The position numbers were made by a program. Shown here piece after piece: positions 18,001 to 45,000 of a stretch of 64,000 nucleotides of DNA. Each line of letters starts with the position of its first letter. Position 1 is the first letter of the stretch. The DNA is taken from assembly GCA_033977065.1 (NCBI GenBank), contig JAXCHI010000003.1, positions 384,001-448,000 of the forward strand, given 5' to 3'. Source of the stretch: Candidatus Algichlamydia australiensis (GTDB taxonomy: Bacteria; Chlamydiota; Chlamydiia; Chlamydiales; JAJFMI01).

Positions 18001-21000
18001 AGAAGTGATTCACTCGAACTATCAAGAGTATTTAAAAGAGTGTTTTGCCGAAGTGCATGTCGAATAGAGCTCTACAGCGATGGTGAGCTGGATTTTCGCA
18101 TTTAGTCTTTCAGCGGATCCCATGGCTCAAGACCTTCTGTTAAGGGAGCAATTTTGGCATAGAGATCGGAGTTTTTCTATTAGGTAAATTGGACAATTAA
18201 GAATATTCCCATCTTTTTTTAAATTCATGGGAGAGCAGCGAATGAGCATTTGAGGGTGGTACTTAACTTCATAGACTTTAAGACTCTTTTTTTTCGACGA
18301 ACTTCCAGATTTCACTTCTAAAGGATAAATTTTGTCGTCATCTTCTAATATAAAGTCAATTTCTGCTTTCCCGGCGCTTGTCCAGTAATAGAGTTGATAA
18401 TGATTATGAGTTAACTCTTGTGCGATATAGTTTTCAGTGATTGCTCCCTTAAATTCTTGAAAAAGGTTGTTCTCATGAAGGATTACTTTTGGTGATAGGT
18501 TGGTCATTGCTCCTAGGAGGCCTACATCCACAAGGTAGATCTTAAAGGCATTCATATCTGCGTAAGCTGAAAGAGGATTTTTGGGAGCGCTGATGAGCCG
18601 AACTTTATGAATGAGGCCAGCTTCAATCAACCACTGCAAAGCTACTTCAAATTCTTTAGCTCGTGCTCCTTTCCGAATAGCGGAATAGATGAATTTTTTG
18701 TTTTCTTTAGCTAATTGGTTTGGAATAGAGTCCCACGCTTGATTAATTCGCATAATATGCTCGTCTGGAGCATGTTTTGCAAAATCTAGTTTGTATGCGT
18801 TTAAAATTGCATGGTGAATTTCTCGAACTTTTAAGATGTTTTGCGATGAAATGTATTCGAAAACAGCTTCGGGCATTCCTCCTACAAACAGATACTCTTT
18901 AAAATATTGCAATAGTTTTTCGTGCAAATTAGGAGGGAGGGGATCTACATTTTTTAATTCTTCAATGAACTTTTTTAATTTAAGCTCGTTTAAAGCTTCA
19001 AGAAATTCTAGGAAACAGAGAGGGTAGAGGGTTAAGAACTCTACCTTCCCAACAGGGAAGCCTTTGGTATGTGCTAATGTTACTCCTAATAAAGATCCAG
19101 CGGCTACAATATGATGTTCAGATGCAGACTCACAGAAATATTTGAGACTATTTAATGCGTTGGGACACTCTTGTATTTCGTCAAAAATAATTAGAGTTTT
19201 ACCTGCAACGACTTCAGTATCCATCTCAATGGATAACGCTTTTATGATTTTCTCCGGGCTGAGACCTGCATCGAAAAGTTTACAAAGTGAAGGGGTGTCT
19301 TCAAAATTGAGGTAAACCGTGCTGTCATACTCGCTCTGGCCAAACTTTTTTAGTACAAAAGTTTTTCCTACCTGCCTCGCTCCCATGAGAAGCAGGGGTT
19401 TCTTGTCGGCTCTTGACTTCCAAGAGTGTAATTTTCTCATTATTTTACGCTTCATAAATTTATAATACCTAATTTTTACATTTATTGGTTCCAAAAAGTG
19501 TAAAAATTTACACTTATTTGTTCCAAAAAATGCAATTATCGACACTTTTTGGAACCAATAAATGTGAAATAAATTCTAAAAATCTGAATTAGAATGATTT
19601 AAAGAATATGGTTCAATCACGAGGATGATGGAGTAGATCTTCGGCAAGCTCTATTTGAATTTTTTGAATCTCCATCAGACGCTCCCACTGCTTTTTCGTA
19701 AAAAGATCCATTTTGGCATGTAACTGGCGGATTTCAAGCTCTGTTTTGAGGTTGGTGCGGTAGTCGTCATTGTCTCGCAGATGATCTTTGGTTGCCTGCC
19801 TGTTCTGGCTCATCATAATCACGGGGGCTTGGATGGCAGCTAGACAGGAGAGAAAGAGGTTCAGGAGGATGTAGGGATAGGGATCGAAGGCGCGATGCAA
19901 CAGGATATAGGAGTTAATTCCCATCCAGACGAGAAGGAGAGAGAAGAAACAGACGATAAAGGTCCAGCTCCCGCCAAATTTAGCAACGCGATCTGCTAAG
20001 CGTTCGCCAAAAGTAGCACCTGTTTCGAACTTTTTGCTTATATCTTCTGTAAGGAGATCGTGTTGCTCGATACTTTCAAGCACCTCTTGATCAAGCTCTG
20101 ATAGTTGACCGCGCTCTTCTTCTAGTAAATTTTCAATGTGGTCTGAGCGAGCCTTTCGCAGATCGACAGGGCAGATGTAGCCATTGTCGCAATTATTATG
20201 GTTTTTTCTGAGAAACTCAAAAAAAGAGGGGCGCATCAGTGCTGTTGGAAAAAGATGCTTTTTAGAAAACTCCTTCCCACAAACAAGACAACACTGTTTT
20301 CCATTACCATTCGAAGGAGTAGTCATAGTTAAGAAAAAGGGGTAGCCAAAGGGCTACCCCTCTATAATTCAAGATGGTTATTTTTTACCTGTACGTGAGG
20401 TAATCGCTTTGTAACCAACAATTGTGTAAAGAGCAGCGAAACCGATCAATACATAAATCACTCGGAACAACCAAGCTCTGCAGATAAAGTATTCAACGAA
20501 GTTAAAATCGAAGAATCCAACTAAGCCCCAATTCAATCCACCAATGATGAGAAGAATAGCAGCAAGACAATCTAGTTTTTTCATTTTTTTACTCCCAAAA
20601 AAGAATTAATTTTTCTCTTCAATTCCATATATCTCATATAATAATTATTTTATCAAATAAATTATACAAACTAACTTCATAAAAAAAGTCTCAACCTGTT
20701 TAAATTAAATATTTAACATTTAATTATATTTATTATTCTGCTAAAATGATTAAGAATAATTTAAGAAGAGCAGAAAGATCTTATGGTTGAAAGTGTAAAC
20801 GGTTTAGGTTCAGGAGTTACTCCAACAGGAAACTCTCCTCAAGTAACAAGACATCCAATTCAAAGAGGAATTTCGGAAACTCCAGACCAAATGGAGCGAG
20901 CAGGAGGTACTCTACCTCCAACTTTTACCACTAAAGTGAAAGATGTGCTTCTCTTTTTCCCAAGATTGTTGAATTTTACCGTTAGACTTCTATTTTACAT

Positions 21001-42000: not shown

Positions 42001-45000
42001 ATATTAACACTTCGCGCAACACACTCTTGGGATCTTTCATAAAATCTTCGTAATAAACAAGAAGTTTGCGCTTGGGGTTCCACTTATCAAAGTACTGGAT
42101 ATTTCTAAAAAAATAGGACTCCCTTTTTGTGCATTGCTCAATGGCATTATCGATTGATTTACAGTGACGAACAAGTGATTCTGTAGGATTTCGAACAATC
42201 ATTAAGAGGTAGTCTTTTTTTCGATCTGGTGCAGGCTTTATTCTTAAGTTGTGAGAATGAATATAGCGATTTTTATCTGGATCACACTCTGCTGCTGCGG
42301 GCGTATAGATTGTTCTTCCACCATCAACAAGCCATCCTCTATCAGTAAGCATAGTGATGCAATACATCATCCAGTTGGCACCTGATCGGGGATAGGTAAG
42401 GAAAATTACCTCAGGAGAACTTGCTGCTAAGTGCAGAGTAAAAAGAAGAGAGAGAACAAAAATTTTTCTCATAATATTTCGATTTTTTCTTGATGCTATT
42501 CGATCGCCTTAATATTATCAAGAAAATGAAAAGATTTTGTCTGGTTTTTGTTTTACTTGTCTCCTCACTTAGTGCTTTTGATAAAGTTGTGATTTGGGGT
42601 TACAAGCTTCACACGCATACGCACTCCTATATCCATCAAGGATTTTACCGTGCATTCAAACACTTAGGATTTGACGTTCGTTGGTATGATGAGAATGATC
42701 CTATTAACGAAGAGGAGCTTGCAAATTCTCTTTTCATCTTGAACTTGACTCGTTCAGATAACATTCCGATACGTTCCGATTGTTTCTATATTTTACACAC
42801 ACGTTGGCGCAAAGAGTTTTCTGCACTTGATACAAAATTTGGACCTTTGATTGAGCAGGGGCGTTGCGTTGCAATGAAGTGCTTTTGCGATCGTTTTCTC
42901 GATTTACCAGGATATGAAAAGCTAGCTCCCTGCATTTATAGGTCGTTAAAGAAGCGCGATGTTGTCATGCCGTGGGCAACGGACCTTCTGCCTCATGAGA
43001 TTGATAAAGAGAAAGAGCGCCTCGCAAACATCTCTCCTAAAAAGCGGGTTGCTTATCTTGGAACAATCGGAAGAGGTGAAGGGCGGGGGTCTAACTATCA
43101 GCAGTTGTATCCTTTTTTCAAAGAGGCAAGACGAAGAGGCTACTCTGTAAAAACGAACGACCCTTGGAGTAAACCTCTTTCGATTGAGGAGATGAAACAG
43201 CTTTTGCAAGAATCAAAGCTTGCACCAGCAATACAAGGTGCATGGCAAGTAAGAAAAGGGTATATTCCTTGCCGCATCTTTAAAAATTTAAGTTACGGCT
43301 GTCTTGGTATAACAAACTCTTATCGCGTTTGGGAACTCTTTGATCGCAAAGTTGTTTACGATCCTGATTCAGCAAACCTCTTTGTAAAAGCGGAAAAAGC
43401 TTTAGAGACCTACTCTCTTGAAGAGCGCTTTGCCATGATGGATTATATTAAGGAGCACCATACCTACTTAAGTCGTATACGGCTTCTTTTGGAAGCGTTG
43501 CATGTTTGTTCAGGTGATCAACATATTCTTGAGATCATCGAAAACTTCAGCAATAAGAGAGGTTTTAATATTTAAGTTGACAGGCGCTTACTATCAAAGC
43601 TAGTTTGAAATTGGAATGAAAAGTCGCCTGCAGAGAGTGATTGCTCTCTTTATTATTTTGAGTGTTCCTACTTTTATTCTGAAGGAGTATCAGAATTTAA
43701 AAGTCTCTAGACGGAAAAATATTTTTTCTGAAGTCAAGCCTGCTCAACCAGTTGCGTGTTTGCGTGATAAAGAGTTTGTGATTCTCATTGTTTCGACTGC
43801 CATCAATGAGCAATTTTGGGAGAGAAATTTAAACTCTTTACTTACACAAGCTTATGAAAATTATCGTGTGGTCTATCTTGATGGTGGTAGTTCACAGAGA
43901 ATGCTCGATCGCATCGAGTATTCAGTTGCGCAGAATGAAAAAGCGGAGCTTGTAACGATCATTCGCAAGGAAGAGAAGCGCTCCTTGTTTGAGCACTATT
44001 GTGATGTTGTCAAAAACTTAGCGGATGATGCAGTGGTAGTTCACCTTGATGGAAATGACTGGCTTGCACACGACCTTGTTTTGCAAAAACTCAATAGCGC
44101 TTACTCTTGCCAAGGGGTATGGCTTACCTACGGCGGCTACTTAGAGTATACGCCTGGAAAGGCGGTATCGAGTATTGAGGCCTTTCAACAGCAAGTTAGT
44201 GGTCAAAGGCGCTCTAGCAGTGTTCCGTGGTTTCGCTCACCTCTTAAAACCTATTACGCAAAATTATTCAAACAGCTTGATTTCAGTGCGATCTATCAAG
44301 AAGACCAAGCCTTAACTGGATCGAGTTGGGGGTTCATGCTGCCGATGGTACAGATGGCGGGGCGTCATGTGCACTACATTCCTGAAGTTCTCTACGTTCA
44401 CAACACTATCTAGATAGCGTCGTCAAAAGGCTATAATCAGATTATTTTTCATGTTTGCAGCTTATTTTTGTGCGGAAATTGAAGCTGAATTTGTAAATTC
44501 CGCTTCATTTGAGCACAAAAATGGAGCCCAAACATGAAAAATAAGATAGTTGTATGCTTTTGACGACGCTATCTAGAAGCCCGTGATGCGCCTTTCATAA
44601 ACAGAACCAATGCCAAGCTCATCGCGATATTTAGCTACAGTCCTTCTGGAAATCGGTTTGCCAAGCTCTCGCAATCCCTGCGCCAACTCTTCATCAGAGA
44701 GAGGGCGCTCTTCTTGAGCAACAAGCTCTTTAAGTCTCTCTTTTGGTCCTAAATTTTTTTGCAAAAAATATTTTAGAGGGAACATTCCCATGGAACAGAG
44801 TAGCCACTTTTCTTGGCAAGCACGAGAAACGGTAGATTCGGCTACCTGGAGTTTTTCTGCGAGATACGTAAGAGTTGATCCTTTCGGGTAAGTTGTTTTT
44901 CCTAAAAAGAACTCTTTTTCTTTTTCTATTAAAAGTTGAGCAAGTTGGGTGAGCATTTTTTTGCGATTGCGCAGGGCAACCAATAGCCAGCGCTCAGTAC

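What a model noticed while it worked through the whole genome (the two positions that open the first line are those of the whole stretch)
20783..44413. Sulfotransferase-rich glycan locus in a genome with no PAPS synthesis genes
A 24-kb locus combines 7 sulfotransferase-like genes with 5 GT2, 2 DXD-type glycosyltransferases and a GT6. Five more sulfotransferase paralogs and a sulfatase lie elsewhere. The assembly encodes neither APS kinase nor ATP sulfurylase. The bacterium is therefore predicted to make sulfated glycans using PAPS taken from its host.
Evidence so far: Pfam scan of the locus. Paralog family of 11 plus g0133. Sulfatase at C4:428367-430256. PF01583 gave only a 19.7-bit P-loop hit below cut-off, and PF01747 gave none. 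PF00685 gave 9 six-frame hits here, second highest of 151 genomes. The paper search found nothing on chlamydial sulfotransferases or PAPS.
(Added by a program. Inside this text positions count along the whole contig: contig position 384,001 is position 1 of the stretch shown here. "Call 12" and the like, gene names such as g00115 and contig names such as C1 are that model's own, and its searches are not shown. The text may have been shortened before it was handed on; [...] marks where a part breaks off. The agent that wrote the report below was given it as the finding of a first reader that could run no searches.)

Follow-up and report, generated by a model that had tools for sequence, protein, structure and literature searches.

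The report
Exported sulfation and glycosylation enzyme battery
An uncultured chlamydia-like bacterium carries about twenty sugar-adding and sulfate-adding enzymes that nearly all bear export signals, and it has no genes to make the sulfate donor, so it probably builds sulfated sugars outside its own cytoplasm using donor molecules from its host cell.

Summary
Window 22.4-44.4 kb encodes 8 PF00685-type sulfotransferase paralogs, 6 GT2, 2 DXD (SetA-like) transferases, a GT6 and 5 further glycosyltransferase-like ORFs, split by topA-SWIB. The 1.80-Mb assembly (93.4% complete) has no APS kinase, ATP sulfurylase, CysD or CysN. The weak hits are FtsY, a PP-loop protein and EF-Tu-like GTPases. The "sulfatase" looks like a multi-TM LtaS/EptA-type protein without the formylglycine motif.

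A conventional glycan cluster 12 kb away has none. Across the order, 49 of 78 sulfotransferase-positive genomes lack APS kinase. Where PAPS synthase or APS kinase exists, it carries a signal peptide in 22 of 30 genomes. Neighbouring sulfotransferases mostly share that state (13/14 against 2/10).

Best reading (about 0.5): these enzymes work in the periplasm or vacuole lumen on host-derived nucleotide donors. Relatives make PAPS there from host ATP. This lineage (3 of 3 genomes) lacks the synthase and would depend on host PAPS. Everything is inferred from sequence. Signal peptides were called with a home-made rule, and donor, acceptor and compartment are untested.

The parts
20783..22231 (+). 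482-aa ORF. It has no enzyme domain and no signal peptide. It has one hydrophobic stretch at about residues 55-80. The remainder is Pro/Gln-rich and charged. It is doubtful that it belongs to the locus.
   Evidence: No Pfam hit at E<=0.01; only noise at E<=5; sequence read.
22363..23124 (+). Sulfotransferase paralog 1, with a signal-peptide-like N-terminus (MKKFALFFCMPLLIMA...).
   Evidence: PF00685 29.0 bits; paralog BLASTP; SP heuristic.
23124..23885 (+). Sulfotransferase paralog 2, SP-like N-terminus.
   Evidence: PF00685 21.2 bits, just under the cut-off of 22; 52% identical to paralog 1, E 1.6e-83; SP heuristic.
23924..26422 (-). DNA topoisomerase I fused to a SWIB domain. It is a housekeeping gene that splits the locus and has no SP.
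   Evidence: PF01131 410.7 bits and PF02201 88.6 bits.
26569..27372 (+). Distant GT2-like glycosyltransferase with an N-terminal hydrophobic segment.
   Evidence: PF00535 30.8 bits; weak BLASTP to the other GT2s.
27369..28364 (+). DXD (PF04488, GT32-like) glycosyltransferase with a hydrophobic N-terminus.
   Evidence: PF04488 50.5 bits; best PDB sequence hit is Legionella SetA, E 2.6e-7.
28355..29266 (+). Second DXD glycosyltransferase. Its hydrophobic N-terminus falls below my threshold. It has a C-terminal TM segment.
   Evidence: PF04488 41.3 bits, PF12919 31.6 bits; 27% identical to 27369-28364.
29211..29876 (+). 221-aa ORF with an HExxH motif and two C-terminal hydrophobic segments. It has no SP and its function is unknown. 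It is conserved at the same place in the same-genus contig L055.
   Evidence: Sequence; no Pfam hit; L055 synteny.
29851..30621 (+). Sulfotransferase paralog 3, the one that was modelled. SP-like N-terminus.
   Evidence: PF00685 39.7 bits over profile positions 6-248; AlphaFold model pLDDT 92.6; Foldseek top hits are PAP-bound human SULTs.
30618..31382 (+). Sulfotransferase paralog 4, SP-like N-terminus.
   Evidence: PF00685 33.2 bits; 58% identical to paralog 3.
31347..32312 (-). CgeB/DUF3880-like putative GT-B glycosyltransferase, SP-like N-terminus.
   Evidence: Weak PF13524 hit, E 0.028. 2191 homologs at E<=1e-5, of which the best 120 are listed; the few named rows are Chlamydiales/Chlamydiia, Parachlamydia acanthamoebae UV-7 (source name 'DUF3880 domain-containing') and one Cand. 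Babeliales. No PDB sequence hit.
32481..33416 (+). Sulfotransferase paralog 5. The likely start is at 32580, which gives MKKLSIVFFIFCC...
   Evidence: PF00685 30.5 bits, PF13469 32.6 bits; internal-start SP; a public gene call of 278 aa, P0010.
33413..34474 (+). GT-B (GT4-like) fold glycosyltransferase-like protein, SP-like N-terminus.
   Evidence: ESM Atlas structure neighbours carry PF13439/PF00534, TM 0.62-0.68. The closest clusters are Chlamydiota and viral.
34468..35184 (-). Sulfotransferase paralog 6, SP-like N-terminus.
   Evidence: PF00685 33.9 bits.
35185..36060 (-). GT2 glycosyltransferase, N-terminal hydrophobic segment.
   Evidence: PF00535 65.3 bits.
36057..36887 (-). GT2 glycosyltransferase, SP-like N-terminus.
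   Evidence: PF00535 62.9 bits. PDB sequence hits (5tze, chondroitin synthase, heparosan synthase B) begin at query residue 30-38.
36884..37696 (-). GT2 glycosyltransferase, SP-like N-terminus.
   Evidence: PF00535 54.6 bits; 59% identical to 36057-36887.
37693..38523 (-). GT2 glycosyltransferase. It has an SP-like N-terminus when read from an internal Met.
   Evidence: PF00535 61.8 bits.
38487..39428 (-). GT-A fold (GT8/GT34/Nucleotid_trans-like) glycosyltransferase-like protein, SP-like N-terminus.
   Evidence: ESM Atlas structure neighbours PF05637 and PF03407, TM 0.53-0.62.
39425..40174 (-). GT6 glycosyltransferase with a DXD (D-A-D) motif and a 20-residue SP-like add-on.
   Evidence: PF03414 151.5 bits. 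BoGT6a E 1.6e-49, with query residue 21 aligned to chain residue 2 and D-A-D aligned to BoGT6a N-A-N.
40211..41107 (+). GT-A fold glycosyltransferase-like protein of a family without a Pfam model, SP-like N-terminus. The family has an invariant DD at residues 110-111.
   Evidence: 111 homologs; the named ones are Chlamydiales and Cand. Dependentiae; alignment; model pLDDT 92.6; Foldseek top hits are GnT-I, POMGNT1, EXTL2 and SpsA.
41067..41843 (-). Sulfotransferase paralog 7. Its hydrophobic stretch starts at about residue 34 of the longest ORF.
   Evidence: PF00685 30.3 bits.
41762..42472 (-). Sulfotransferase paralog 8, SP-like N-terminus.
   Evidence: PF00685 38.7 bits.
42490..43575 (+). 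Paralog of 31347-32312 (CgeB/DUF3880-like). It has an SP-like N-terminus when read from an internal Met.
   Evidence: 44% identical, E 2e-99.
43616..44413 (+). GT2-like glycosyltransferase, N-terminal hydrophobic segment.
   Evidence: PF00535 22.8 bits (cut-off 23.3); BLASTP 1e-29 to 1e-34 to the four tandem GT2s.

Best explanation
The locus encodes a battery of Sec-exported enzymes. There are 8 sulfotransferases (STs) with a PAPS-type fold and motifs, and about 14 nucleotide-sugar-type glycosyltransferases (GTs). They are predicted to work outside the bacterial cytoplasm, in the periplasm and/or the lumen of the host-derived vacuole. There they would build and sulfate a glycan or glycoconjugate on the bacterial surface or in the vacuole.

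This bacterium is an obligate intracellular energy parasite, so that compartment already receives host nucleotides. ATP must pass through it to reach the bacterial ATP/ADP translocases. The exported enzymes are proposed to use host-derived UDP-sugars and PAPS in the same compartment.

Most relatives that have a PAPS synthase also give it a signal peptide. They would make PAPS in this compartment from host ATP and sulfate. This genome's small family has no PAPS synthase, so it would depend directly on host PAPS.

Shown: the gene content, the PAPS-type fold and motifs, the N-terminal export-type sequences, their enrichment, and the absence of PAPS genes from the assembly.

Inferred: actual export, the compartment, the donors, the acceptor, and that the product is a sulfated glycan.
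For: 1. Export signals in the locus.
- By the strict rule, 18 of 24 non-overlapping locus ORFs have an n-region plus an uncharged hydrophobic h-region. The genome figure is 244 of 1266 (19%); hypergeometric p 3e-9.
- By the relaxed rule (N-terminal hydrophobic stretch and no further TM), 20 of 24 against 251 of 1266; p 2e-11.
- The h-regions are 12-15 residues long and end in small residues (..LFA..ICA..LSA..LQA..LIA).
- The exceptions are topA, the 482-aa ORF, the HExxH ORF and one DXD GT.

2. Internal controls. The conventional glycan cluster at 56.5-63.5 kb has no such N-termini. It holds an ABC exporter, a UDP-sugar dehydrogenase, WecB-like, two GT4 and a radical SAM gene. NamZ, a family expected to be exported, has one.

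3. The signal is an add-on to the catalytic domain.
- GT6 residue 21 aligns to residue 2 of cytoplasmic BoGT6a.
- ST-family members in a free-living Cyclobacteriaceae polysaccharide cluster lack it (L067).
- In the ST model, residues 3-16 form a separate helix ahead of the domain.

4. It is a family trait.
- 95 of 133 full-length ST representatives are SP-like by the strict rule.
- 56 of 70 ST ORFs fetched from 26 genomes of the order are SP-like.
- 77 of 110 members of the 40211 family are SP-like.

5. PAPS synthase or APS kinase carries an SP-like N-terminal extension in 22 of the 30 order genomes examined, and in 20 of the 25 Sat-CysC fusions. 7 of 10 of these translations occur letter for letter in public protein collections, so independent gene callers chose the same start.

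6. Co-variation. In genomes with an SP-bearing PAPS synthase or APS kinase, 13 of 14 STs are SP-like. In genomes with an SP-less one, 2 of 10 are. Three of the five SP-less Sat-CysC fusions (G006, G050, G040) sit next to an ORF that is inositol-monophosphatase-family by Pfam in G006 (151 bits) and similar by N-terminal sequence in G050 and G040 (CysQ-like, my inference).

7. The STs are PAPS-type.
- The 5'-PSB-like loop P-[KR]-x-G-x-x-W/F is present in 7 of 8 (H in the eighth).
- H84, R105 and E109 are invariant in 80 sequences.
- Foldseek top hits are PAP/PAPS-bound SULTs, E 4e-7, TM 0.5-0.62.

8. No PAPS genes are found in this genome or in G078 and G047. 49 of 78 ST-positive genomes lack APS kinase.

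9. Intracellular lifestyle and secretion.
- Three intact TLC/NTT nucleotide transporters plus one broken copy.
- A GspF-like gene about 2 kb from a secretin.

10. Precedent. C. trachomatis secretes glycogen enzymes into the vacuole lumen, where UDP-glucose is imported by the host transporter SLC35D2 (abstract of PMC4829429).
Against: - No dedicated signal-peptide predictor was available. My rule is home-made and uses longest-ORF starts. It-35% of all ORFs positive, depending on stringency.
- Export of nucleotide-dependent enzymes by the Sec route into a bacterial periplasm has no experimental precedent that I know of. PAPS or UDP-sugar availability in a chlamydial periplasm or vacuole is unmeasured.
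- The assembly is 93.4% complete, so a PAPS synthase could be missing.
- SP-bearing STs occur both in genomes with APS kinase (15 of 24) and in genomes without it (41 of 46). Therefore the signal itself does not indicate host-PAPS use.
- The genome has six SDR-type NDP-sugar-enzyme-like matches and a UDP-sugar dehydrogenase and epimerase nearby. Some cytoplasmic nucleotide-sugar metabolism therefore exists.
- The acceptor is unknown. Sequence and fold similarity is closest to small-molecule SULTs and to StaL/Teg, not to carbohydrate STs.
- Relatives are kin, so the counts overstate independence.
Confidence: 0.5

Rival explanations
1. Host-directed secreted enzymes. The signal peptides lead, by type II secretion or vesicles, to the vacuole membrane, host cytosol or host secretory pathway. 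There the GTs and STs remodel host glycoconjugates or proteins, using the host's own UDP-sugar and PAPS pools. They would not build a bacterial glycan.
For: - The two DXD proteins are most similar to glycosylating effector or toxin domains: Legionella SetA E 2.6e-7, YeGT, and an RTX toxin GT domain.
- The GT6 keeps the vertebrate-type DXD motif.
- A GspF-like gene lies next to a secretin.
- No lipid-carrier priming enzyme, flippase or polymerase lies in the locus.
- PAPS and UDP-sugars are certainly available in host compartments.
Against: - Relatives export their own PAPS synthase next to these STs. That would be unnecessary if the STs worked where the host already supplies PAPS.
- Known chlamydial and Legionella effectors of this kind use type III or IV signals, not Sec signals (recalled, not tested here).
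- No host target is identified.
Confidence: 0.15
2. Cytoplasmic synthesis of a sulfated surface glycan, with PAPS imported from the host across the inner membrane by an unidentified transporter.
For: - There are no PAPS genes.
- Three NTT-type nucleotide transporters could in principle have a PAPS-carrying member.
- Bacterial PAPS-dependent STs studied so far are cytoplasmic (recalled).
Against: - 20 of 24 locus ORFs and all 14 ST-family ORFs of the genome begin with a hydrophobic export-type N-terminus.
- No UAA/SLC35B-type transporter was found.
- There is no flippase or ABC exporter in the locus.
- Relatives' PAPS synthases are themselves SP-bearing.
Confidence: 0.12
3. Assembly gap. The organism has a PAPS synthase, probably signal-peptide-bearing like its relatives', in the unassembled 6.6% of the genome. 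It would then make its own PAPS.
For: - Completeness is 93.4% in 7 contigs.
- 29 of 78 ST-positive genomes of the order do have APS kinase, often next to STs.
Against: - It is also not found in the same-genus genome G078 (76% complete) or the same-family genome G047 (90% complete).
- 49 of 78 ST-positive genomes lack it. These include single-contig genomes G042, G017 and G191.
- In relatives the gene is often adjacent to STs. Here the flanks of the six ST loci I inspected hold none.
Confidence: 0.12
4. Membrane anchors, not export signals. The N-terminal hydrophobic stretches tether the enzymes to the cytoplasmic face of the inner membrane, so all chemistry stays cytoplasmic.
For: - Some stretches are long enough to span a membrane, for example 26569, 35185 and 43616, with a 19-residue window at or above 1.76.
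- Several lack a clear cleavage site.
Against: - Positive charges precede the hydrophobic stretch and acidic residues often follow it. By the positive-inside rule this puts the catalytic domain outside.
- Most h-regions are only 12-15 residues long.
- It would still leave the PAPS source unexplained.
Confidence: 0.07
5. The sulfotransferase-like proteins do not use PAPS. They would be either inactive binding proteins or enzymes using another donor.
For: - There is no PAPS source in the genome.
- One paralog has H in place of K/R in the PSB loop.
- Pfam scores are modest, 21-40 bits.
Against: - PSB-loop Gly is invariant in the 8 paralogs (in at least 90% of the 80); His, Arg and Glu are invariant across 80 family members.
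- The model is confident and matches PAP-bound SULTs.
- In relatives the same family sits beside PAPS synthase.
- The known PAPS-independent aryl-sulfate sulfotransferases are described as a separate enzyme class (abstract of PMC12809581).
Confidence: 0.04

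Closest known systems
Luminal glycogen synthesis of Chlamydia trachomatis (Gehre et al. 2016, PMC4829429; abstract read)
   Same: An intracellular chlamydia sends its own sugar-polymer enzymes out of the cell into the vacuole. There they use a host-made activated donor (UDP-glucose).
   Different: - That system uses type 3 secretion, a homopolymer (glycogen) and a co-opted host transporter.
- Here the signals are Sec-type and the enzymes are about 14 diverse GTs plus 8 STs.
- Relatives also export a PAPS synthase.
- Nothing here is experimentally shown.
Cytoplasmic bacterial PAPS-dependent sulfation systems (rhizobial NodH with NodPQ, Xanthomonas RaxST with RaxPQ, mycobacterial Stf enzymes; recalled, except RaxST seen in the listing)
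   Same: PAPS-type sulfotransferase fold and motifs. In some relatives the ST is adjacent to a PAPS synthase plus a CysQ-like gene without signal peptides (G006, G050).
   Different: This genome has no PAPS synthase, and its STs carry export signals. Having 8 tandem-type paralogs in one locus, and 14 in the genome, is unusual.
Eukaryotic Golgi glycosylation and sulfation
   Same: It would work like this. Luminal GT-A and GT-B transferases and PAPS-dependent STs are fed with nucleotide donors made elsewhere. The GT6 is homologous to the Golgi ABO/alpha-3-GalT enzymes (E about 1e-37) and keeps their DXD motif.
   Different: It is not a member. The compartment would be a bacterial periplasm or a pathogen vacuole. 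No SLC35-type transporter is encoded. Most of the enzymes are bacterial or viral families.
Bacteroides ovatus BoGT6a (PDB 4ayj)
   Same: Closest solved relative of the GT6: E 1.6e-49 over residues 21-221.
   Different: BoGT6a has N-A-N where this protein has D-A-D. It also lacks the 20-residue hydrophobic N-terminus.
Periplasmic aryl-sulfate sulfotransferases (ASST; abstract of PMC12809581)
   Same: A bacterial sulfotransfer class; that it is periplasmic is my recollection, not from the abstract.
   Different: ASSTs are PAPS-independent and, as I recall, have another fold. The proteins here have the PAPS-binding SULT fold.

Membership tests
PAPS-dependent sulfotransferase superfamily (PF00685/PF13469) | Profile score above the curated cut-off | tested here: met
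   7 of 8 locus paralogs are above 22 bits (29.0-39.7). The eighth scores 21.2 bits but is 52% identical to a member.
PAPS-dependent sulfotransferase superfamily (PF00685/PF13469) | 5'-phosphosulfate-binding loop (P-K/R-x-G-x-x-W/F near the first strand) | tested here: met
   Alignment A1: K/R in 7 of 8 and H in one; Gly invariant. Gly is present in at least 90% of 80 sequences. That this loop equals the SULT PSB loop is recalled knowledge.
PAPS-dependent sulfotransferase superfamily (PF00685/PF13469) | 3'-phosphate-binding Arg and catalytic His | tested here: inconclusive
   H84, R105 and E109 are invariant in 80 sequences. Their equivalence to the SULT catalytic His and the 3'-PB Arg was not checked by residue-level superposition.
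PAPS-dependent sulfotransferase superfamily (PF00685/PF13469) | SULT fold | tested here: met
   Model pLDDT 92.6, pTM 0.88. 114 PDB matches at E<=0.001; the top ones are PAP/PAPS-bound SULT1C2, 2B1b and 1B1, with TM 0.5-0.62.
PAPS-dependent sulfotransferase superfamily (PF00685/PF13469) | PAPS-dependent sulfotransfer activity | not testable with these tools
   Needs an enzyme assay.
Glycosyltransferase family 6 | PF03414 match and similarity to solved GT6 enzymes | tested here: met
   151.5 bits against a cut-off of 25. BoGT6a E 1.6e-49; human ABO transferases E about 7e-38.
Glycosyltransferase family 6 | Metal-binding DXD motif (vertebrate type) or NXN motif (Bacteroides type) | tested here: met
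   D-A-D aligns with the N-A-N of BoGT6a.
   A regex search of the 629-aa protein finds no such motif. The PF00884 domain is present (188.5 bits), preceded by about 7 TM segments. I recall that architecture from LtaS/MdoB/EptA-type transferases.
Sec-type signal peptide | Positively charged n-region, uncharged hydrophobic h-region of about 10-15 residues, small residues before the mature part | tested here: inconclusive
   Met by my own rule for 18 of 24 ORFs (strict) or 20 of 24 (relaxed), against 19-20% of the genome. The sequences were read. No trained predictor (SignalP) was available.
Conventional Wzx/Wzy- or ABC-dependent surface-polysaccharide locus | Initiating phosphoglycosyl transferase, flippase/polymerase or ABC exporter, and cytoplasmic GTs | tested here: not met
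   None of the 25 locus ORFs matches such a family in Pfam, and the GTs carry export signals. A separate cluster at 56.5-63.5 kb does have an ABC exporter and SP-less GT4s. The genome-wide search for a priming enzyme or flippase was not done.
Own PAPS synthesis (CysC/Sat or CysDN) | APS kinase and ATP sulfurylase genes | tested here: not met
   - PF01583: best 19.7 bits, which is FtsY.
- PF01747: none.
- PF01507: best 18.2 bits, a PP-loop protein.
- TIGR02034: best 102.5 bits against a cut-off of 336.
-. The assembly is 93.4% complete.

The most novel reading that the evidence does not exclude
Many chlamydiae run a Golgi-like glycan factory outside their cytoplasm. Sec-exported nucleotide-sugar glycosyltransferases, PAPS-dependent sulfotransferases and, in most lineages that have one, an exported PAPS synthase would work in the periplasm or vacuole lumen on host ATP, sulfate and UDP-sugars. 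This genome's family would have gone one step further: it has lost the synthase and parasitises host PAPS directly. That would be a new cell-biological principle for bacteria, namely extracytoplasmic nucleotide-dependent biosynthesis made possible by living inside another cell's cytosol. It would also give a genetic basis for chlamydia-made sulfated glycans.
Probability: 0.4. Interest if true: 0.9.

Novelty: new variant of a known kind. Interest (0 to 1): 0.78.

Why it matters
Bacterial glycosyltransferases and PAPS-dependent sulfotransferases are textbook cytoplasmic enzymes, because their donors exist only in the cytoplasm. Here, a whole set of them appears to be exported, and in relatives the PAPS synthase is too. 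If so, intracellular bacteria can treat the space around them as an extension of host metabolism.

Possible consequences:
- It would change how reduced genomes are read, since 'missing' pathways may be outsourced to the host.
- It predicts sulfated glycans or glycoproteins at the chlamydia-host interface.
- It bears on the old proposal that GAG-like molecules bridge chlamydiae and host cells. I saw this in the introduction of PMC2229832, which cites Zhang and Stephens 1992 and Rasmussen-Lathrop et al. 2000. I did not read those two papers.
- It offers a large, uncharacterised family of secreted sulfotransferases: 504 clusters at E<=1e-30.

Members of two of the GT-like families occur in Parachlamydia acanthamoebae UV-7 or in Dependentiae. 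Tests in cultivable amoeba symbionts may therefore be possible.

Tried and rejected
- My first idea was that signal peptides mark the genomes lacking PAPS synthase. I rejected it. SP-like STs occur in both groups: 15 of 24 in APS-kinase-positive genomes and 41 of 46 in negative ones. What co-varies is the SP state of the STs with that of the PAPS synthase.
- A search for a eukaryote-type PAPS or nucleotide-sugar transporter (PF08449) found none.
- Pfam at E<=5 on the seven no-Pfam ORFs gave only noise, apart from PF13524 at E 0.028.
- A PDB profile search with the 31347/42490 family gave no hit at E<=1.
- Word-based homolog search with one ST found only 7 proteins. The exhaustive profile search was needed.
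- GalE and GalU equivalogs were not found above cut-off: best 125 bits against 262, and 52 against 327. Six SDR-type matches exist, so this says little.
- RNA evidence: no RNA holder listed.
- Literature searches found nothing on chlamydial sulfotransferases, PAPS synthesis or exported PAPS synthase in the searchable library. The searches were:
  - 'sulfotransferase' + 'chlamydiae': 17 papers, none on bacterial enzymes of chlamydiae by title or abstract start.
  - sulfotransferase / signal peptide / intracellular bacteria / PAPS.
  - 'PAPS synthase' + 'periplasm': 1 irrelevant paper.
  - 'chlamydiae' + 'adenylylsulfate kinase': 5 papers, none relevant by title.
  - 'chlamydiales' + 'sulfotransferases' + 'signal peptide': 0 papers.
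  - Subscription journals and supplements were not searched.

Full report
**What is there.** The window is G000:C3:384001-448000 of a 1.80-Mb, 7-contig assembly that is 93.4% complete. Related loci fetched by name are almost all 'Chlamydiae/Chlamydiia bacterium' MAGs. The locus contains a topoisomerase I-SWIB fusion. The genome has three intact TLC/NTT nucleotide transporters, one broken copy and one distant 417-aa match. This is therefore an obligate intracellular, chlamydia-like bacterium.

Between 22363 and 44413, Pfam and all-against-all BLASTP give:
- 8 sulfotransferase (ST) paralogs, 26-58% identical to each other. Seven are above the PF00685 cut-off and one is 0.8 bits below it.
- 6 GT2-like ORFs: four in tandem at 35185-38523, 32-59% identical to each other, plus two more distant ones.
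- 2 PF04488 DXD transferases.
- 1 GT6 (151.5 bits).

The ORFs that Pfam leaves blank are mostly glycosyltransferase-like as well:
- 33413-34474 has a GT-B (GT4-like) predicted fold.
- 38487-39428 has a GT-A fold.
- 40211-41107 belongs to a family of 111 homologs; the named ones are from Chlamydiales and Candidatus Dependentiae. Its model (pLDDT 92.6) matches GnT-I, POMGNT1, EXTL2 and SpsA.
- The pair 31347-32312 and 42490-43575 belongs to a very large family (2191 proteins at E<=1e-5). One source names it DUF3880-containing in Parachlamydia acanthamoebae UV-7. It has a weak PF13524 hit.

Three ORFs are not enzyme-like:
- topA-SWIB (23924-26422).
- The 482-aa first ORF (20783-22231).
- A 221-aa HExxH/TM ORF (29211-29876). 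It is nevertheless conserved at the same position in the same-genus contig L055, which is syntenic with 26.5-37.7 kb of the window.

**Sulfotransferases elsewhere, and the PAPS genes.** A profile of the 8 paralogs finds 6 more ORFs in the genome, 4 close and 2 distant, all as singletons. PF00685 finds 5 of them. No PAPS-synthesis gene is found:
- PF01583: best hit 19.7 bits, which lies in FtsY.
- PF01747: nothing.
- PF01507: best hit 18.2 bits, in a PP-loop protein.
- CysN model: best 102.5 bits against a cut-off of 336.

However, it also has about seven N-terminal TM segments and no formylglycine motif. I do not file it as a sulfatase.

Reading the N-termini shows that nearly every enzyme starts like a Sec signal peptide. 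Examples are MKKFALFFCMPLLIMA|YP, MKKILLSLIAFSTLFS|TP, MSRFLLSILLLPLFCFA|KE and MKKFFTSLFLITTICA|QK.

I used two home-made rules, so these calls are not from a trained predictor:
- Strict rule (K/R in the n-region, no acidic residue before it, and a 10-residue uncharged window of mean hydropathy at least 2.0). 18 of 24 non-overlapping locus ORFs qualify, against 244 of 1266 genome ORFs of at least 150 aa; p 3e-9.
- Relaxed rule that also requires no further TM segment. 20 of 24 qualify, against 251 of 1266; p 2e-11.
- The ST at 41762-42472 was dropped from the non-overlapping set because it overlaps its neighbour. It also qualifies.

Controls inside the same window behave as expected. The conventional cluster at 56.5-63.5 kb has no such N-termini. 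It holds an ABC exporter, a UDP-sugar dehydrogenase, a WecB-like epimerase, two GT4 and a radical SAM gene. NamZ has one.

The signal is an addition to the catalytic domain:
- GT6 residue 21 aligns with residue 2 of BoGT6a.
- PDB GT2 matches start at query residues 30-38.
- Members of the ST family in a free-living Cyclobacteriaceae polysaccharide cluster lack it (L067).
- A member in a Candidatus Babeliales MAG, another intracellular lineage, has it (L063).

**The sulfotransferases look PAPS-dependent.**
- The paralogs share a P-[KR]-x-G-x-x-W/F loop: K/R in 7 of 8 and H in one.
- His84, Arg105 and Glu109 are invariant across 80 family members.
- The model (pLDDT 92.6) matches PAP- or PAPS-bound cytosolic SULTs (E 4e-7, TM 0.5-0.62) and the antibiotic sulfotransferases Teg12/14. 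The profile search also hits StaL and CurM.
- The family is large and unnamed: 3249 representatives at E<=0.001 and 504 at E<=1e-30.
- 95 of 133 full-length top representatives are SP-like by the strict rule. Several of the 'misses' are visibly hydrophobic.

**What relatives show.** I sampled 201 genomes of the order. 78 have PF00685 matches. 36 have a real APS kinase. Three further weak hits of about 26 bits lie in roughly 300-aa ORFs and resemble the FtsY hit here, so I dropped them. G094 was not scored.

The cross-table is:

| | APS kinase present | APS kinase absent |
|---|---|---|
| ST present | 29 | 49 |
| ST absent | 7 | 115 |

Sulfotransferases without a PAPS source are therefore the majority pattern. 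They include single-contig genomes G042, G017 and G191. All three genomes of this family (G000, G078, G047) show it.

I fetched 58 regions from these genomes and examined the genes:
- Of 70 ST ORFs, 56 are SP-like.
- Of 30 PAPS synthase or APS kinase genes, 22 begin with an SP-like extension, for example MKLQVKFKLYSLILSILLLPLFSLIADSA|SLTL. This includes 20 of 25 Sat-CysC fusions, whose domain content was confirmed by Pfam for six. One rule-positive call (G003) is the kinase's own first strand, so I count it as negative.
- Seven of ten such translations are present letter for letter in public protein collections, annotated as bifunctional SAT/APS kinase. The starts are therefore not my artefact.
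- The eight SP-less genes include G006, G050 and G040. There the synthase sits next to an inositol-phosphatase-family (CysQ-like) gene, and the neighbouring STs lack signals.
- The ST signal state follows the synthase signal state. 13 of 14 STs are SP-like in SP-positive genomes, against 2 of 10 in SP-negative ones (Fisher p 5e-4). By genome it is 7 of 7 against 1 of 6, with one tie dropped. Kin are not independent, so the p-values are only indicative.

**Mechanism proposed.** Two modes of sulfation seem to exist in this order:
- An ordinary cytoplasmic mode, with the synthase, a CysQ-like gene and an ST all lacking signals.
- A commoner exported mode, in which the synthase, the STs and the neighbouring GTs all carry Sec signals.

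For an intracellular bacterium with ATP/ADP translocases, host ATP has to pass through the periplasm. An exported PAPS synthase would find ATP and sulfate there. Exported GTs and STs could use host UDP-sugars and PAPS.

This genome belongs to the exported mode but lacks the synthase. The simplest reading is direct use of host PAPS in the periplasm or vacuole lumen, with no inner-membrane importer needed. A GspF-like gene lies about 2 kb from a secretin, so onward secretion is possible. The C. trachomatis glycogen system is a precedent for exported sugar-polymer enzymes fed by a host nucleotide sugar (abstract of PMC4829429).

The acceptor is unknown. I favour a glycan or glycoconjugate because 14 GT-like genes are interleaved with the STs. 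However, the fold is closest to small-molecule STs. Also, two small secreted Tyr- and acid-rich proteins lie near one ST paralog, so protein tyrosine sulfation is not excluded.

**Limits.**
- No trained signal-peptide predictor was available.
- There is no localisation, activity or expression data. No RNA holder was listed.
- The genome is incomplete.
- The order sample is a sample.
- Starts are longest-ORF starts.
- The literature check covers only the open-access library.

**Verdict.** It is wrong about the place, and the 'sulfatase' does not hold up. The stronger finding is the predicted exported sulfation and glycosylation system, including exported PAPS synthases across the order.

Noticed in passing
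Loci L015, L017, L019, L021, L022, L082-L084, L086-L099 (relatives): PAPS synthase (Sat-CysC fusion) or APS kinase genes start with a signal-peptide-like extension in 22 of 30 genomes of the order. Public annotation calls them plain bifunctional SAT/APS kinase.
   Followed up: yes
window 56537-63516 (+): A conventional glycan cluster without export signals. It holds an MsbA-like ABC exporter, a UDP-glucose/GDP-mannose dehydrogenase family gene, a UDP-GlcNAc 2-epimerase, two GT4 glycosyltransferases and a radical SAM gene.
   Followed up: partly
G000:C2:184284-185114 (L079:2285-3115, - strand): Two small ORFs (128 and 145 aa) have signal-peptide-like starts. They have acidic, Tyr-rich stretches (..GGYDDYDDPDGYDD..) and Arg/His/Tyr-rich tails. 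They lie about 1.7 kb from ST paralog C2:186767-187531. The acidic Tyr context resembles tyrosine-sulfation sites (a recalled resemblance).
   Followed up: no
G000:C2:187588-188712 (L079:5589-6713, +): A 374-aa protein with weak hits to SAM-methyltransferase domains (PF08242 28.6 bits, below its cut-off of 30) and a signal-peptide-like start lies next to an ST paralog. It would be another cofactor-dependent enzyme that appears to be exported.
   Followed up: no
It sits next to a sodium:neurotransmitter symporter family gene.
   Followed up: yes
G000:C2:62034-63490 (-): A fourth TLC/NTT nucleotide transporter gene is interrupted by stop codons (1 TAA, 2 TGA) and split into two frames. It is a likely pseudogene.
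   Followed up: no
window 16046-17144 (+): An HTH_3 (Xre-type) gene is followed directly by a Fic/DOC family gene. This looks like a regulator-Fic pair.
   Followed up: no
window 5205-5900 (-): A DDE transposase (DDE_Tnp_1_5/DDE_Tnp_1) lies about 15 kb upstream of the locus.
   Followed up: no
window 9753-11390 (+): A 545-aa ORF has two matched ThyX (PF02511) stretches, the best at residues 321-512. It is unusually long for ThyX and may hold two ThyX-like parts or an N-terminal extension.
   Followed up: no
window 29851-39428: The DNA is held almost completely (0.99 and 0.94 of sampled words) by two runs of one study labelled 'dinoflagellate metagenome'. One of them may be the source. This is a lead on the habitat or host only.
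   Followed up: no
window 40211-41107 and 31347-32312: Two GT-like families without a useful Pfam model have named members in both Chlamydiales and Candidatus Dependentiae/Babeliales. Both groups are, from recalled knowledge, intracellular in protists. Atlas neighbours of 33413 and 38487 include giant-virus and phage clusters.
   Followed up: partly
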